Positions 2,818 to 8,284 of a stretch of 24,375 bases of DNA are shown in pieces. Numbering within the stretch: the first letter of the stretch is position 1; every line of letters starts with the position of its first letter. This DNA comes from Christensenellaceae bacterium (GTDB lineage: Bacteria; Bacillota; Clostridia; Christensenellales; Borkfalkiaceae). The position numbers and the translations under genes were made by a program. The DNA lies in contig JAZRYO010000225.1 in the NCBI GenBank assembly GCA_045600785.1, forward strand, positions 1 through 24,375, read 5' to 3'. Under the pieces are notes generated by a model. It saw only the letters and a program-made list of their open reading frames with translations. It did not search any database and was not told the DNA's origin.

Positions 2818-2846
2818 ATTTTATCATATTTTTTTAACTCAGTCAA
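2818..2846 (-). promoter_or_regulatory. sigmaA-type promoter of the str operon
   Basis: TTGACT (2846-2841), 17 nt, TAAAAT (2823-2818), with TG one base upstream of the -10. Confidence 0.75.
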
Positions 2847-2910
2847 CGTTTTTAACGGATATATATAATATATTTAACATTTTTTTTGATATTTTACCCC
2901 TAAAAAGCAC

Positions 2911-2940
2911 AAAAAAAGGCGTGTGAAAAACTCACACGTC
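2911..2940 (-). terminator. Rho-independent terminator after the tldD-tldE-lipoprotein operon
   Basis: Minus strand CGTGTGA-gtttt-TCACACG followed by CC and T7. Confidence 0.8.
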
Positions 2941-2954
2941 TTAATTTTGTTAAT

Positions 2955-4445
2955 TCAGAAGCCTATTTGCGCTCCAAATGTCGCCGAGAAGAAATACTTG
3001 CCGTTAAATATCTCGGTCAATAATTTTCCGAGTGGAAGGGTAAACGATAAAACGTTTTCTTCTTCGATTTTTTCAACCTTAAAGAAGGGATTTTCTTCAA
3101 ACGCCGAAAGGTCGGCGTCGCCACACGGAATACTTACGGGAACGTCAAACTCTATCTCTCCTGCGTTTGCCGTGTATCCGAAATTGAAAGTCGCTTTTGC
3201 GTCGGTTAAAATTCCGTCGGTCGTTTTTACTTCCGTTTCATAAGAAAGCACGTCGACGAAAACTTTATTTATAAGTTCGAATATCGGCAAAACTTTTCCG
3301 CCGAATATTCTTCTCGATAAAGCGTCAGTCCACTCGTTTAACGTCTTGGTCTTAAACTTCGGAACTAAAACTTCTCCTATAAGGTGTTCAAGTTTCGCAC
3401 TTTGGTCGCCAACTATCATTTGATACAATTCGTTTAGAGAGTATTTGCCGACCTGCGCCATAAGATAATCGTATGCGCCTTCGCCGTCTTTTAGGTCGGG
3501 AAGATTAAACCCGAATTTTTCGTTTACGCTATCTATTACGCTTTGAACGTCCAAAGAAAGTATCTTGAAAATTAAATCGACCGTTTCACGCAAAGAAAAA
3601 TCTTGGTCTTTTAGTTGACTTCTTAAAAGTGCGTCTAAAAATATGGCTAAAGTCGATATGCGCATATTGACGACGCCGTCGGTATCGTCTTGGTCGTCGC
3701 CGAATAAAAGCGGTAATATCTCGTCTAAAAATTCGTCGCAACTTTCCGTCCCTATAAGTTCGTACAAAGTCTTGTCTTTGAACCCGTATAAATCTTCCAA
3801 AACTTCGTTTGCAAGCAAGCCGATATTTTCGTAATCTCTATCCGTCTTAACTCCCTTTTCGGCGTCTTTCGTCTTGTAAAGTCCGTACGCCAAATCCGCT
3901 ATCTTGCCGTATAGTTCGTTATAACGCTTAGTAAGTTCTACGCTGTTTTGTTCTTCGACGAAATCTTTAATACTTTTTTCTATCTCTTTAAGCGTGCCTA
4001 TACGGAAGGATATTTTTTTATCTTCCGGTCCGTAAAGAATTTCGACTGCTCCGTCCTTATAAGTCAAAGTGCTTTCGAATAAAATTATACTCGAAACGCC
4101 TTCGCCGTACGCCCTGACTCTGATACTCGCAAAAAGGTCGAATCCGTCGTCGGTGTTTTCAAGCAACACTCCCAAATCGGCATCGAACACGCCACGACCT
4201 AAAACGAACTCGCCGTCCTTTTTCTCGGCGGTAAATTTATGAGTAAAGTTGCCTACCGCAAGCCCGTCCGTAAATATAGGTAAACCGTCGATGAGTTGAA
4301 CGAGTGAAACCCCGTCGAAACTCTCTCTTTTAAGTTCGATTGCCTTCGTTTCATCTTCCGTTTTTTCTTGCTTTTGACAAGAACATACGAAAAGCGTACA
4401 GCACGACAAAACTACCGCTAATAATACTGCTAAAAATTTTCTCAT
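2955..4445 (-). CDS. Hypothetical lipoprotein, 496 aa
   Basis: Basic N-terminus MRK, hydrophobic stretch and lipobox-like VCSC (Cys23); SD AAGGAG; no family recognised. Confidence 0.75.
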   Translation of the reverse strand: MRKFLAVLLAVVLSCCTLFVCSCQKQEKTEDETKAIELKRESFDGVSLVQLIDGLPIFTDGLAVGNFTHKFTAEKKDGEFVLGRGVFDADLGVLLENTDDGFDLFASIRVRAYGEGVSSIILFESTLTYKDGAVEILYGPEDKKISFRIGTLKEIEKSIKDFVEEQNSVELTKRYNELYGKIADLAYGLYKTKDAEKGVKTDRDYENIGLLANEVLEDLYGFKDKTLYELIGTESCDEFLDEILPLLFGDDQDDTDGVVNMRISTLAIFLDALLRSQLKDQDFSLRETVDLIFKILSLDVQSVIDSVNEKFGFNLPDLKDGEGAYDYLMAQVGKYSLNELYQMIVGDQSAKLEHLIGEVLVPKFKTKTLNEWTDALSRRIFGGKVLPIFELINKVFVDVLSYETEVKTTDGILTDAKATFNFGYTANAGEIEFDVPVSIPCGDADLSAFEENPFFKVEKIEEENVLSFTLPLGKLLTEIFNGKYFFSATFGAQIGF

Positions 4446-4464: not shown

Positions 4465-5736
4465 TTAAACGATATTCATACCGTCTAATACCATTTTCGA
4501 CGGTCCTTCGTAAGAACCCCTTATAGTCTTTATTTTGTTTAATCTTACGGTATTTAATACCTTGCTTAATCTACCGCTCATAGAAACGCCCGTTATCGAA
4601 CGGGTTTGCTTGCCGTCGTAGTAGTAAGCAAGTCTTATTTCTCCGCCTATATAGTCGTTATATAAATCGACTTGTATGCCCGATAAGGATACACACTCGA
4701 AATAAGGCTCTTTTTTTAATTCCTTTTCGGTAAGCGTTCCCGTGTCTAATTTCATACAGGAAAGCATACCCGTAGGTTGTTCTTTTAAGTATTCGGCAAA
4801 TCTTACCGTGCCGTGATTTGCAACTACTTTGCCGTCTTTTATTATCGTCTTGTCGGCAAGAGAATAGCCGTCGTCGTCAAACGCAGAAGAAAATACCGAA
4901 CCTTTTATTTGCGCTTTCATTGTAAGCGTCAATTTGTCGCCCTTGGGGGCGGTTTGTATCTTACCGTTTTTCTTAAATAAATTCGACTTCGAATATACGC
5001 TTGCAAAGTCTAAATCGGAAACGTAATTTCTCAAAAGTTCTTGTATCTCGTGTGCGCCCAAAACGACTTTACACTTAATCTTTTCGGTAGGCTTTTCGGC
5101 GTTTCTTCTATCCCTAACTTCTCTCATTTTGCCGTCTATCTCGGCGGTAATTTCTTCGGGGATAAGTTCGGTAAACTCGTAGTTCTCGTAAAGTTCGACC
5201 GACTCGCCTTCGTTCCACGTCGGAATTGCTTCGACCATCGCCCTATACTTTACTTGCGTCTTATCGACGCCTTTGCTGTTCTTGACGTTTACCGTCTTTT
5301 TATAGACGAAAATTTCGGTTGCGTTTATCGAACCGTTTTTATAGTTGTCCGCCTTAAAGACGGCTTTCGCTATTTCTTCGGCAACCGACTTTAACTCTTT
5401 TCCTTCGAAGTTCGATTTGACCGTATAACTTCCTTTACCGCCACCTACGATATCGTAATTTTGGTTGGAAACGAGTTTCGCCCTTGCGGTCGCTTTCTCG
5501 ATTTTGTCCTTGACTTCGGCTTCGGTATTACCTTCGAAAACCGAGAAGGAACTCTCGCCCTTAAAACCGTCGTGGTCAACGTAAACGGTTACGAACTTTT
5601 CGTTGACGTCGGTCGCACGGGCAGTTTCTATTTTTTTCTTAACGTAAAAAAGTTGATAAGAAGATACTTCGCTACTTATTACTTTATAGTCCGAAACGCC
5701 TTCGGACTTTTTCAATAATTCAAAAACGTCTATCAT
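4465..5736 (-). CDS. TldE/PmbA-family partner of the TldD metalloprotease
   Basis: AFDDDGY motif, YYYDG-like C-terminal region, no HExxH; ATGA overlap with the upstream tldD-like gene. Confidence 0.8.
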   Translation of the reverse strand: MIDVFELLKKSEGVSDYKVISSEVSSYQLFYVKKKIETARATDVNEKFVTVYVDHDGFKGESSFSVFEGNTEAEVKDKIEKATARAKLVSNQNYDIVGGGKGSYTVKSNFEGKELKSVAEEIAKAVFKADNYKNGSINATEIFVYKKTVNVKNSKGVDKTQVKYRAMVEAIPTWNEGESVELYENYEFTELIPEEITAEIDGKMREVRDRRNAEKPTEKIKCKVVLGAHEIQELLRNYVSDLDFASVYSKSNLFKKNGKIQTAPKGDKLTLTMKAQIKGSVFSSAFDDDGYSLADKTIIKDGKVVANHGTVRFAEYLKEQPTGMLSCMKLDTGTLTEKELKKEPYFECVSLSGIQVDLYNDYIGGEIRLAYYYDGKQTRSITGVSMSGRLSKVLNTVRLNKIKTIRGSYEGPSKMVLDGMNIV

Positions 5737-7130
5737 CCTAATTTAACCCTCACTTTCAAGTTGGGTCCGCCGTCGGCAACCCTAACCCACTCTTTATATC
5801 CTTTTCCGCAACTACCCGAACCTATGACTTCGGACTTGTCCGATATCATAGTTATCGACTTCAAAAGTTCGGGTACCGAACCGCTCATAACGACGGGCGA
5901 TACGTAATTGTCTGTAAGTTTTCCGTCGATTATTTCTATGCCGTATTCGGCGGTGCATTGTATTTGCCAGTTCTTCGGGTCTTCCATACCGTTGTTGGTA
6001 TCGAATAACATATAGCCGTGTTTAATCGACTTTATCATATCCGAAAGTTTGTCTTTTCCTGCGTCGAAGAAAGTGTTGGTCATACGGGAATAAGCCTTGT
6101 TTTTGAAACTCTCTCTCCTGCCGTTGCCCGACGGTTTGACTTTAAGTTCGGTCGCACTCGTCAAGTCGGAAAGTCCGTTTACCAAAATTCCGTCTTTAAT
6201 GATTTGAGTGTTTTGCGCCAAAACGCCGTCGTCGTCAAAGAAGTACGACGCAGCCGACAAAGTCGCCCCCGCACCGTCTCTCATATTAGATATAGGCGAC
6301 GCAACGTATTTGCCGACGTATGATTTCGCAAGCGCCCTATCCTTTACGAATTGGTCCATTTCAACGCCGTGTCCGAACGCTTCGTGGGCGATTAAGCCCG
6401 TTATCGAACTGTCGGTTATAACGTCGTAAACCCCGGGAACTATGGGTTTTGCCTTGTCGAGTTTATGCGCAAGGTCGATAACTTTATCTGCCTTTTTAGT
6501 TAAGTCGGACATTACTTTTTTAAGCATGTTTCCGTTTGCGCTTTCAACTGCCTGAACTACTCTCTCGCCCTTATATATGACTACCAAAAAGGCGTTTGCC
6601 CAACCGTAATGTTGGTCCAAAACTTTATTGTTCGATACGAAAAGTTTTGATACGGTATAAGGACGGACGGATACGAAAGCGTTTAGTATCTTGTCGTCTT
6701 TTTTAAGCGTTTCGTTCATAAGGGAAGAACAGTACGACAATACTTTTTCGTCCGAAAACTTATCGAAATCGCTTTCTCTTAAAAAGGACTCGACGTGCTT
6801 TTCGTCCTTGATTTTTTGGCACTTTATCGTGTCGCCTTTAAGTTTTTTGGTGAGTTCGACCGAAGATAAAATCTTCTTCGCAAGTTCTTTTTTGTCCCCC
6901 GAAATATCCGATACCGAATATTCGTAGAAGGCGTCTTTTTTGTGCATTTTAACGACAAATCCACAGTCGTTTTGACCTTCTCTAATCATCGACGCCGCAC
7001 GGTTTGCTGTGTAGAACGTTTCTCTGACGTCAGTCCCTAAAACGCTGACGTAAGAAAAATGTTTCTTCAATTCTTTAACGAGTAAAACGGCGTCTTGTTT
7101 TCTACTTTGTAAAAATTCTGAAAACGGCAT
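5733..7130 (-). CDS. tldD: TldD-family metalloprotease (465 aa from ATG 7130)
   Basis: HEAFGHG zinc motif, FFDDDG, GNGRRES...SRMTNTF, GSCGKG; SD AAGGAG before ATG 7130. Confidence 0.9.
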   Translation of the reverse strand: MPFSEFLQSRKQDAVLLVKELKKHFSYVSVLGTDVRETFYTANRAASMIREGQNDCGFVVKMHKKDAFYEYSVSDISGDKKELAKKILSSVELTKKLKGDTIKCQKIKDEKHVESFLRESDFDKFSDEKVLSYCSSLMNETLKKDDKILNAFVSVRPYTVSKLFVSNNKVLDQHYGWANAFLVVIYKGERVVQAVESANGNMLKKVMSDLTKKADKVIDLAHKLDKAKPIVPGVYDVITDSSITGLIAHEAFGHGVEMDQFVKDRALAKSYVGKYVASPISNMRDGAGATLSAASYFFDDDGVLAQNTQIIKDGILVNGLSDLTSATELKVKPSGNGRRESFKNKAYSRMTNTFFDAGKDKLSDMIKSIKHGYMLFDTNNGMEDPKNWQIQCTAEYGIEIIDGKLTDNYVSPVVMSGSVPELLKSITMISDKSEVIGSGSCGKGYKEWVRVADGGPNLKVRVKLG

Positions 7131-7157: not shown

Positions 7158-7186
7158 ATTATATATCCTTTTCCCGTCTTTTTCAA
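7158..7186 (-). promoter_or_regulatory. sigmaA-type promoter of tldD
   Basis: TTGAAA (7186-7181), 17 nt, TATAAT (7163-7158). Confidence 0.75.
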
Positions 7187-7245
7187 CTGATTTTATATTC
7201 TTTTTTCTTTTACCGACTATTTGCCCCACTTATACTCCCCAAAAA

Positions 7246-7369
7246 TCACTCGCCGTAGGCGTACTTCACTGCACCGCAACTTCACTTGCGTTAGCAAACT
7301 TCACTGCGTAGCAACTTCACTTGTCGTAAGACAAACTTCACTTGCGCCAGCAAACTTCACTGCTCCGCA
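7246..7369. repeat. Array of ACTTCAC linkers alternating with variable mini-hairpins
   Basis: Exact ACTTCAC at 7263, 7279, 7298, 7314, 7335 and 7354, plus partial TCAC at 7246. Each is followed by a 9-14 nt self-complementary unit. Confidence 0.92.
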
Positions 7370-7378
7370 ATTCTCAAC

Positions 7379-7416
7379 AAAAAAAAAAGAGATGCGATAA
7401 AACGCATCTCGTTTTT
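7379..7416 (-). terminator. Rho-independent terminator of rplM-rpsI (possibly bidirectional)
   Basis: GAGATGCG/CGCATCTC stem (7389-7410), T10 tail on minus, T-rich tail on plus. Confidence 0.88.
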
Positions 7417-7418
7417 TG

Positions 7419-7832
7419 TTATCTCTTTGAGAATTGCGGAGCACGTCTTGCTTTCTTTATGCCGTACTTCTTTCTTTCCTTCATTCTCGGGTCTCTCGTT
7501 AAGAAACCTGCTTTTTTAAGCGTCGGACGGAGTTCGGGTTCTGCGACGATAAGCGCTCTCGAAATTCCGTGTCTTATTGCACCTGCTTGACCGGTAAATC
7601 CACCGCCGATTACGTTTACGAATACGTCGTACTTTCCGTCGGTTTCGGTCAAAACAAGGGGTTGACGAATAATGAGTTTTAACGTGTCAAGGTCGCAATA
7701 CTCGTCAATGCTTCTTCCGTTTATGTTGATAGCGCCCGTTCCGCCAGGGATAAGTCTAACCCTTGCGATTGCGCTCTTTCTTCTTCCTGTTCCCCAGTAT
7801 TGAAGTTTCTTTTTAACAGATACTTTTGCCAT
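7419..7832 (-). CDS. rpsI: 30S ribosomal protein S9
   Basis: [12 protein letters not shown]...[19 protein letters not shown]...[12 protein letters not shown]...[10 protein letters not shown]. Confidence 0.99.
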
Positions 7833-7849: not shown

Positions 7850-8284
7850 TTATTTACCGATTTTAAGTTCTACGGGTTTTTGTGCTTGATGATTGTGTTC
7901 TGCGCCTTTGTAAACACGAAGTTTAGAAAGCATTTGTGCGCCCAAAGTGTTCTTGGGAAGCATGCCCTTTACCGCTTCGTAAACAACGACGTCCGACTTT
8001 TCGTCCATCATTCTTCTGTATGGCGTTTGCTTTAATCCGCCGACGTATCCCGTGTGATAAGTGTAAAGTTTTTGGTCGAGTTTTTTACCCGTTAAAACTA
8101 CCTTGTCGCTATTTATTACTATTACGAAATCGCCCGTATCGACGTTGGGAGTGAATATCGGCTTGTTCTTTCCACGAAGAACGGTTGCAACTTGCGATGC
8201 AAGTCTTCCGAGAGTAAGTCCCGTAGCGTCGACAACGTACCATTTTCTTTCAACTTGTTGGTCCTTTGCCATATAAGTTTTCAT
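7850..8284 (-). CDS. rplM: 50S ribosomal protein L13
   Basis: [40 protein letters not shown]...HTGYVGGLK...GMLPKN. Confidence 0.99.

What the first reader, a model, noticed from the sequence alone, without database searches (positions are those of the whole stretch)
7246..7369. Comb-like array: fixed ACTTCAC linker plus variable mini-hairpins with ssDNA-type loops
Seen: six exact ACTTCAC linkers (periods 16, 19, 16, 21, 19 nt) separate seven self-complementary units: CGCC-GTA-GGCG, TGC-ACC-GCA, TTGC-GTTA-GCAA, TGC-GTA-GCA, TTGTC-GTAA-GACAA, TTGC-GCCA-GCAA, TGC-TCC-GCA. Stem sequence and length vary while pairing is kept, so this is not simple slippage. Five loops are G(N)nA on plus and one more is GGA on minus. 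Known: GNA and GNNA loops (e.g. d(GCGNAGC)) form unusually stable DNA mini-hairpins, while GTTA and GCCA are not RNA GNRA loops. Inference: a REP-like or modular element that acts as single-stranded DNA, possibly a substrate or product of an HUH/RAYT-type enzyme or a protein-loading site. It sits between the rpsI terminator and the tldD promoter. I cannot assign it to a named family.
Basis: partly seen in the sequence, partly recalled or inferred. Interest (0 to 1): 0.78.

Follow-up and report, generated by a model that had tools for sequence, protein, structure and literature searches.

The report
Orphan Gut-1-type hairpin-and-linker repeat array
The comb of tiny hairpins joined by ACTTCAC is real, but it is a one-armed, expanded copy of a dispersed repeat of gut Clostridia that Rfam already lists as the unexplained 'Gut-1 RNA'.

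Summary
There are six exact ACTTCAC words at 7263-7360, with the stated periods, and seven self-complementary units, lying between the rpsI terminator and the tldD-family promoter.

The array belongs to a described family. It matches Rfam Gut-1 (RF01706) on the minus strand at 35-38 bits, below the curated cut-off of 50. The same genome holds three other contigs with Gut-1 matches, two of them above the cut-off.

Family features found here:
- Exact ACTTCAC+hairpin arrays occur in dozens of gut and rumen Clostridia MAGs.
- Copy number among 40 congeners ranges from 0 to 51.
- Complete copies have two arms with mutually complementary heptamers.
- All 10 testable Avd-like IVP genes (PF05635) of the genus have such a two-armed array directly upstream.

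The window copy has one arm, no IVP gene nearby, and looks locally expanded.

The RAYT/IS200 and reverse-transcriptase readings are not supported. The window's genome has no Y1 transposase match, and neither do G050 and G046. None of the five genomes tested, including the four richest in arrays, has a reverse transcriptase match.

So a single-stranded form is likely, but RNA versus DNA stays open.

This scan has already noted the family on other DNA (276 notes, at least 191 genomes). Verdict: new member of a known kind, with modest interest.

The parts
7243..7262 (+). Degenerate first linker AAATCAC (7243-7249) and first hairpin CGCC-GTA-GGCG (7251-7261). The hairpin resembles the centre hairpin TTCGCC-GTnA-GGCGAA of complete elements. 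TTTGCCCC at 7220-7227 resembles their TAAGTTTGCCC closing strand.
   Evidence: read by eye against complete copies; homology of this part is inferred
7263..7369 (+). Six exact ACTTCAC linkers (7263, 7279, 7298, 7314, 7335, 7354), each followed by a perfect mini-hairpin. This is the single arm of the array. The unit ACTTCAC-TGCGTAGCA-ACTTCAC is shared with arrays in G020, contig C149 of the same genome and several other MAGs.
   Evidence: Rfam Gut-1 matches on the minus strand: 7238-7306 (35.0 bits), 7309-7378 (25.6 bits), 7274-7343 (38.5 bits)
7361..7377 (+). Left arm of an exact 17-nt inverted repeat. It overlaps the last hairpin unit and is an inverted copy of the rpsI 3' end.
   Evidence: No such copy appears in the rpsI-downstream sequence of 29 congeners
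7389..7410 (.). Bidirectional intrinsic terminator hairpin, with an A-run before it and a T-run after it. It ends rpsI on the minus strand and could end a plus-strand transcript of the array.
7427..7443 (-). Right arm of the 17-nt inverted repeat. It lies in the last codons of rpsI (RAPQFSKR, stop at 7419-7421).
7209..7236 (+). Promoter-like site TTTACC-16-TATACT just upstream of the array, 9 of 12 consensus matches. Not shown to be active.
7158..7186 (-). Strong promoter-like site TTGAAA-17-TATAAT for the TldD/PmbA-family gene (5733-7130, minus strand). It lies downstream of the array on that strand, so the array is outside that gene's mRNA.

Best explanation
The array is an orphan, one-armed and locally expanded copy of the Gut-1-type hairpin-and-linker repeat family of gut Clostridia.

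In this family a constant heptamer alternates with short hairpins whose sequence is free but whose pairing is kept. The hairpin top is C(purine-N-A)G when read in the ACTTCAC sense. Complete copies have two inverted arms whose heptamers are exact complements, and they lie directly upstream of a gene for a small Avd-like four-helix-bundle protein (23S_rRNA_IVP, PF05635).

Inferred mechanism: the element acts as a folded single strand. The hairpins serve as clamps, and the heptamers are either displayed unpaired or, in two-armed copies, zipped arm to arm into a rod of stacked four-way junctions. The folded element is the nucleic-acid partner of the IVP protein.

The window copy has only one arm and no IVP gene nearby, and it sits in the gap between a terminator and a promoter. 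It is most likely an inert or at most decoy remnant. It grew by duplication of units and was fixed next to the rpsI terminator.

Shown: family membership, anatomy, the IVP association in this genus, and the lack of a transposase or reverse-transcriptase link. Inferred: protein binding, single-strandedness, and the lack of a local function.
For: - Rfam Gut-1 is the top hit on the array, with hairpins and linkers aligned unit for unit. Full copies in congener G020 reach the cut-off (50.2 bits).
- The window's genome also has Gut-1 matches on C18 (62.8 bits), C152 (52.9 bits) and C267 (42.7 bits, below the cut-off), with heptamers such as GTGATAT and GTGAAAT.
About 50-59 of them have palindromic spacers, all from gut or rumen Clostridia MAGs.
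- Gut-1 matches per genome among 40 congeners range from 0 to 51.
- All 10 IVP genes of the genus with upstream sequence available have a two-armed array directly upstream. Each has its own heptamer pair: GTTATAT/ATATAAC, ATGAAGC/GCTTCAT, GTGATGT/ACATCAC, ATGATGT/ACATCAT, ATGATATA/TATATCAT. The window genome's own IVP gene on C63 is one of them.
- ACTTCAC-type arrays lie 15-24 nt before IVP start codons in L032, L078 and L092. The L032 and L092 proteins match PF05635 at E 9e-28 and 6e-25.
- A full element folds through inter-arm heptamer pairing, z = -9.9.
- The loop and closing-pair bias is strand-specific in both arms.
Against: - The window copy scores below the Gut-1 cut-off: 35-38 bits against 50.
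- It has no second arm, and there is no IVP gene on its 24-kb contig.
- G020 (22 Gut-1 matches), G050 (51) and G053 (22) have no PF05635 match at all, so arrays persist without a resident IVP gene.
- In several loci a sigma-70-like promoter lies between array and IVP gene, and in the ATGATATA type the arm order relative to IVP is flipped. The array is therefore not simply an mRNA leader.
- No transcription of the array was seen, but the only RNA run that held this locus was far too thin to judge.
- Binding of IVP to the array is untested.
Confidence: 0.55

Rival explanations
1. Independent small RNA on the plus strand. Transcription would start at the TTTACC-16-TATACT site (start near 7243-7245), run through the array in the ACUUCAC sense and stop at the bidirectional terminator (about 7418). 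The roughly 175-nt RNA would display six unpaired ACUUCAC words between hairpins, as a sponge for a protein or for complementary GUGAAGU arms of other copies.
For: A promoter-like site and a terminator bracket the array on the plus strand. The purine-N-A loops and tandem G.A pairs lie in this sense. The plus-strand fold including the terminator gives z = -4.3.
Against: The promoter match is weak: 9 of 12, against 0.6 such sites expected per shuffle of a 600-nt region. No RNA contig covers the array (coverage very thin). The assembly holds no GTGAAGT-sense partner arm; its only two ACTTCAC arrays both read plus on their contigs. Solo arrays elsewhere show no consistent orientation to neighbouring genes and differ in orientation to adjacent terminators.
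Confidence: 0.15
2. Selfish or neutral intergenic repeat with no partner protein. It would be a REP/BIME- or MITE-like DNA spread by an unknown host or element function and tolerated beside terminators. The IVP adjacency would reflect shared insertion preference rather than function.
For: Copy number among congeners ranges from 0 to 51. About ten roughly 400-bp composite copies in G020 are similar to each other but have unique flanks, and many sit at contig ends. In three of them the flanks are the two halves of a terminator-like stem. There is no orientation bias. Genomes rich in arrays can lack an IVP gene.
Against: No transposase travels with the arrays: Y1 and reverse transcriptase were tested and not linked. 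The 10-of-10 adjacency to IVP genes, each with a locus-specific and arm-matched heptamer, is hard to get from insertion preference alone. The strand-specific loop bias is kept although stems have diverged.
Confidence: 0.22
3. One reading: an ssDNA element that is the substrate or product of an HUH/RAYT-type Y1 enzyme, or of a reverse transcriptase.
For: The C-GNA-G and GNNA loop tops are those of very stable DNA mini-hairpins (established knowledge), and they are enriched family-wide in one sense.
Against: PF01797 has no match in the window's genome, in G050 (51 arrays) or in G046 (25). It is present in genomes without arrays, such as G006 and G010. PF00078 has no match in any of the five genomes tested. 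The units lack the 20-40-nt REP form and its conserved tetranucleotide. The plus (ACTTCAC) strand as DNA folds only modestly (z = -2.8).
Confidence: 0.06

Closest known systems
Gut-1 RNA motif (Rfam RF01706; Weinberg et al. 2010, Genome Biol 11:R31, PMC2864571)
   Same: Both are short hairpins of free sequence joined by a constant G-U-G-A-x-x-U heptamer, with a pyrimidine-rich loop in that sense, and both come from gut Clostridia. The cmscan alignment matches linker to linker and stem to stem. The published seed alignment already shows two-armed copies, GUGAUAU then AUAUCAC.
   Different: The curated model has three hairpins and a GUGAAAU consensus. The window copy has seven hairpins, the heptamer GUGAAGU and one arm only, and scores 35-38 bits against a cut-off of 50. 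The paper says only that the motif occurs in human-gut environmental sequence. It reports no genome, no copy-number variation and no protein partner.
Arrays upstream of Avd-like 23S_rRNA_IVP genes (PF05635), an informal class from earlier notes of this scan
   Same: Same hairpin-and-heptamer grammar. The same ACTTCAC word sits directly before IVP genes in L032, L078 and L092.
   Different: Those copies are two-armed and gene-linked. The window copy is one-armed, longer, and not near any IVP gene. The IVP gene of this genome (C63) uses a different heptamer, ATGATGT/ACATCAT.
REP/BIME elements and their RAYT transposases
   Same: Intergenic, terminator-proximal, hairpin-forming, multi-copy and of variable number between relatives.
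   Different: No RAYT/Y1 gene accompanies them. Units are 9-19 nt, not 20-40 nt. The conserved part is the linker, not the palindrome.
CRISPR arrays
   Same: A constant short word alternates with variable segments.
   Different: The constant word is 7 nt, and the variable parts are self-complementary 9-19-mers rather than captured spacers. Periods are 16-21 nt. The array matched no curated Rfam RNA family other than Gut-1.

Membership tests
Gut-1 RNA motif (RF01706) | Three or more short hairpins joined by a conserved GUGA..U heptamer, as scored by the covariance model | tested here: met
   Gut-1 is the best Rfam hit on the array, aligned over the full model 1-77, twice in tandem on the minus strand.
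Gut-1 RNA motif (RF01706) | Score at or above the curated gathering score of 50 bits | tested here: not met
   35.0, 25.6 and 38.5 bits; no hit at gathering threshold. Full copies in G020 reach 50.2, and loci C18 and C152 of the same genome reach 62.8 and 52.9.
Gut-1 RNA motif (RF01706) | Occurrence in gut bacteria | tested here: met
   All palindromic ACTTCAC arrays found come from gut or rumen Clostridia MAGs.
Gut-1 RNA motif (RF01706) | Expressed as a non-coding RNA in the GUGAAAU sense | tested here: inconclusive
   One RNA run holds the locus at very low depth with no contig on the array, and contigs carry no strand. On the minus strand the array lies after a terminator and before the next promoter.
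IVP-linked two-armed hairpin arrays | Two inverted arms with complementary heptamers | tested here: not met
   Only ACTTCAC-sense units are present at 7243-7369, and there is no GTGAAGT arm nearby.
IVP-linked two-armed hairpin arrays | PF05635 gene directly beside the array | tested here: not met
   The PF05635 matches of this genome are on C63 (78.4 bits) and C122 (20.8 bits, below the cut-off), not on the window's contig C225.
REP / RAYT system | Y1 HUH transposase (PF01797) in the genome, tracking the repeats | tested here: not met
   No match in G000, G050 or G046, and no correlation with array counts across 40 congeners.
Retroelement-made repeats (DGR or retron type) | Reverse transcriptase gene present | tested here: not met
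   PF00078 is not found in G000, G020, G046, G050 or G053.

The most novel reading that the evidence does not exclude
Gut-1 may not be a free-standing small RNA. It may be one arm of a dispersed two-armed module whose heptamers zip into a rod of stacked four-way junctions. That module would be the cognate nucleic-acid partner, or the mobile ends, of stand-alone Avd-like IVP genes, making an undescribed protein-nucleic-acid system. One-armed copies such as this one would be its orphans or decoys.
Probability: 0.3. Interest if true: 0.7.

Novelty: new member of a known kind. Interest (0 to 1): 0.3.

Why it matters
This copy on its own matters little. It is one more sub-threshold and probably inert member of a family catalogued in 2010 and noted many times already in this scan.

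The family still matters. It is widespread in uncultured gut Clostridia and varies from 0 to 51 copies among congeners. It has no known function, and it is tied to an equally unexplained Avd-like protein family.

Two results here are useful for that larger question:
- An independent check in a new genus: 10 of 10 IVP genes carry an arm-matched array directly upstream.
- Negative tests against Y1 transposases and reverse transcriptases.

The results also show that the Rfam model misses expanded, one-armed and alternative-heptamer copies.

Tried and rejected
- **Rfam at gathering threshold:** nothing in the window. The relation to Gut-1 appeared only with permissive thresholds and through full copies in relatives.
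- **Empty-site search:** the rpsI-downstream sequence of 29 congeners has a terminator but no array. The downstream gene also differs, so there is no strict empty site. Flanks of G020 copies matched congeners at only 65-83% identity with longer, unrelated spacers, and one query was swamped by a repeated gene segment.
- **Transcription:** the one RNA run holding the locus gave a contig only on the tldD 5' end. No conclusion is possible.
- **G.U versus A.C mismatch asymmetry to name the RNA strand:** too few mismatches, 7 against 3 in arm II/solo units and 1 against 1 in arm I.
- **Orientation of solo arrays relative to neighbouring ORFs:** no bias.
- **Strict whole-genome detector** (four or more hairpins with 7-nt linkers that nearly match one consensus): it finds only this array in the assembly. 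The reversed-sequence control is invalid because reversal keeps palindromes.
- **Coding repeat:** rejected, because periods of 16, 19 and 21 are not multiples of three.
- **CRISPR, iterons, parS-like sites:** rejected on unit size, lack of helical phasing, and free stem sequence.
- **Literature:** nothing on these arrays beyond the 2010 catalogue entry and a benchmark mention.

Full report
**What is in the sequence**

The plus strand holds ACTTCAC at 7263, 7279, 7298, 7314, 7335 and 7354, giving periods 16, 19, 16, 21, 19. The window has 9 copies of the word against 2.0 expected, and no shuffle reaches 9. Each linker is followed by a perfect mini-hairpin. A seventh hairpin (CGCC-GTA-GGCG, 7251-7261) precedes the first exact linker and follows a degenerate one (AAATCAC, 7243-7249).

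The flanking genes are all on the minus strand:
- rplM, 7850-8284
- rpsI, 7419-7832
- a TldD/PmbA-family gene, 5733-7130

A bidirectional terminator lies at 7389-7410. A TTGAAA-17-TATAAT promoter for the TldD-family gene lies at 7186-7158. On the minus strand the array therefore sits in the gap between a terminator and the next promoter. On the plus strand a weak promoter-like site (7209-7236) and the same terminator bracket it.

- Five of the seven stems are TGC/GCA or TTGC/GCAA, and Tandem Repeats Finder reports a 35-nt two-unit period. This array partly grew by local duplication. Its own compensatory evidence is one paired T/A insertion plus the first unit.
- The last unit is the start of an exact 17-nt inverted copy of the rpsI 3' codons (7361-7377 against 7427-7443). 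None of 29 congeners has such a copy.

**It is a family, and a described one**

The window's genome is a MAG of 1.12 Mb in 267 contigs with 39% G+C. It has a second ACTTCAC array at the end of contig C149. Congener G020 has 41 pattern hits at ten or more loci, many at contig ends.

The 50-59 loci with palindromic spacers are all gut or rumen Clostridia MAGs: Oscillospiraceae, Acutalibacteraceae, Christensenellaceae, Ca. Scatosoma and unclassified Clostridia. The remaining hits, from other phyla, have non-palindromic spacers.

Running Rfam permissively on full copies returned Gut-1 (RF01706) at 43.6-50.2 bits. On the window it is the top hit twice in tandem on the minus strand, at 35.0 and 25.6 bits, aligned unit for unit; a genome-wide run gave 38.5 bits. 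The curated cut-off is 50, so this copy is sub-threshold.

The same genome has Gut-1 matches on three other contigs: C18 (62.8 bits, mainly GTGATAT heptamers), C152 (52.9 bits, GTGAAAT/ATTTCAC, two-armed, next to a tRNA gene) and C267 (42.7 bits, below the cut-off, mostly GTTAAAT).

The only published statement is that Gut-1 occurs in human-gut environmental sequence and in no sequenced organism (PMC2864571). Its seed alignment already contains two-armed copies with GUGAUAU then AUAUCAC.

**Anatomy of complete copies**

A complete copy contains, in order:
- a terminator-like hairpin
- the word AACTAAGT with a TTGCCC hairpin
- three or four GTGAAGT+hairpin units
- a centre hairpin followed by GGGCAAACTTA, which can pair back to the start
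- three or four ACTTCAC+hairpin units

The heptamers of the two arms are exact complements. A full element folds through that inter-arm pairing, with z = -9.9.

I collected 206 non-redundant units flanked by exact ACTTCAC words:
- 182 are perfect hairpins with many different stems.
- 190 are closed by 5'C:G3'.
- Read in the ACTTCAC sense, 175 loops begin with a purine and 174 end with A.
- This holds in both arms, so the favoured sense points outward from the centre on opposite DNA strands.

It does not decide between RNA and DNA. It also fits poorly with one transcript carrying both arms in their favoured sense.

**Partner gene**

Earlier notes of this scan gave a lead: complete arrays sit beside Avd-like IVP genes. 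I tested it in this genus.
- PF05635 matches eleven genes above its cut-off in nine of 40 genomes.
- Ten of them have upstream sequence, and all ten have a two-armed hairpin-and-heptamer array directly upstream.
- Each has its own arm-matched word: GTTATAT/ATATAAC, ATGAAGC/GCTTCAT, GTGATGT/ACATCAC, ATGATGT/ACATCAT, ATGATATA/TATATCAT.
- The IVP gene of the window's genome, on C63, also has a short array downstream.
- ACTTCAC arrays end 15-24 nt before IVP start codons in L032, L078 and L092. The L032 and L092 proteins match PF05635 at E 9e-28 and 6e-25.

Roughly 190 Gut-1-like hits occur across 40 genomes, so ten of ten cannot be chance adjacency.

The link is one-way, however. Most arrays have no IVP gene beside them, and G020, G050 and G053 have 22-51 Gut-1 matches and no PF05635 match. 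In several loci a good sigma-70-like promoter lies between array and gene, and in the ATGATATA type the arm order is flipped. The array is therefore not simply the IVP mRNA leader.

The Y1/RAYT transposase family PF01797 has no match in the window's genome, in G050 or in G046. It does occur in array-free genomes. Reverse transcriptase PF00078 has no match in any of the five genomes tested, four of which have the most arrays in the genus. Solo arrays show no orientation bias to neighbouring ORFs. The plus strand of the array folded as DNA gives only z = -2.8. The RAYT, IS200 and reverse-transcriptase readings are not supported.

**Signs of mobility or turnover**

- Gut-1 matches among congeners range from 0 to 51.
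- The G020 copies form a composite of about 400 bp with unique flanks. In L027, L151 and L016 those flanks are the two halves of a terminator-like stem.
- Arrays often follow tRNA genes or terminators.
- One DNA contig from another sample shows this same array with extra units (single contig, low depth).

I found no strict filled/empty pair.

**Conclusion**

The window feature is a real but ordinary member of a known and still unexplained family: one arm, expanded to seven hairpins, and detached from any IVP gene. My preferred reading is that the family is a folded single-stranded scaffold partnered with the Avd-like protein, and that this copy is an orphan with little or no local function (confidence 0.55). 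The rivals are a neutral selfish repeat (0.22), a plus-strand small RNA (0.15) and the ssDNA/RAYT model (0.06).

The inverted copy of the rpsI end remains unexplained. It may record how the array was joined to the terminator.

Noticed in passing
window 7361-7377 and 7427-7443: An exact 17-nt inverted repeat brackets the rpsI terminator. The right arm is the last codons of rpsI. The left arm overlaps the last hairpin unit of the array. Together they extend the terminator into an imperfect palindrome of about 83 nt. No such copy appears in the rpsI-downstream sequence of 29 congeners.
   Followed up: partly
G020 loci L027:1445-1830, L016, L024, L151, L155 (locus coordinates approximate): About ten similar composite copies of roughly 400 bp. 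Each has a hairpin, two arms, a terminator-like hairpin and a conserved tail of about 110 nt ending in ...ATCACCC. In L027, L151 and L016 the unique flanks are complementary halves of a terminator-like stem, as if the element lay in the loop of a terminator.
   Followed up: partly
G000 contig C63, about 3390-3690 (upstream of the IVP gene at 2830-3090, minus strand): Direct repeats of a unit of about 190 nt (starting AGTGGGAAGGTCGCACAGG...) occur at least two and a half times just upstream of the IVP-linked array. They were not identified.
   Followed up: no
L092:1060-1500 and the same gene in L078: Directly after the IVP gene that follows an ACTTCAC array comes a gene with an N-terminal XRE-type helix-turn-helix. 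Its remainder looks like a GIY-YIG/T5orf172-type domain. This was read by eye from the translation and not scanned against profiles.
   Followed up: no
window 7315-7361, seen in public run X2: One low-depth DNA contig from another faecal sample repeats units 7315-7361 after an extra CGCC-GTA-GGCG hairpin. This suggests unit-number polymorphism of the array between strains.
   Followed up: no
L200, L201, L203 (congeners) and G000 C152:1351-1600: Several two-armed arrays, with or without an IVP gene, start right after a tRNA gene and its terminator hairpin. This hints at a preferred site.
   Followed up: no
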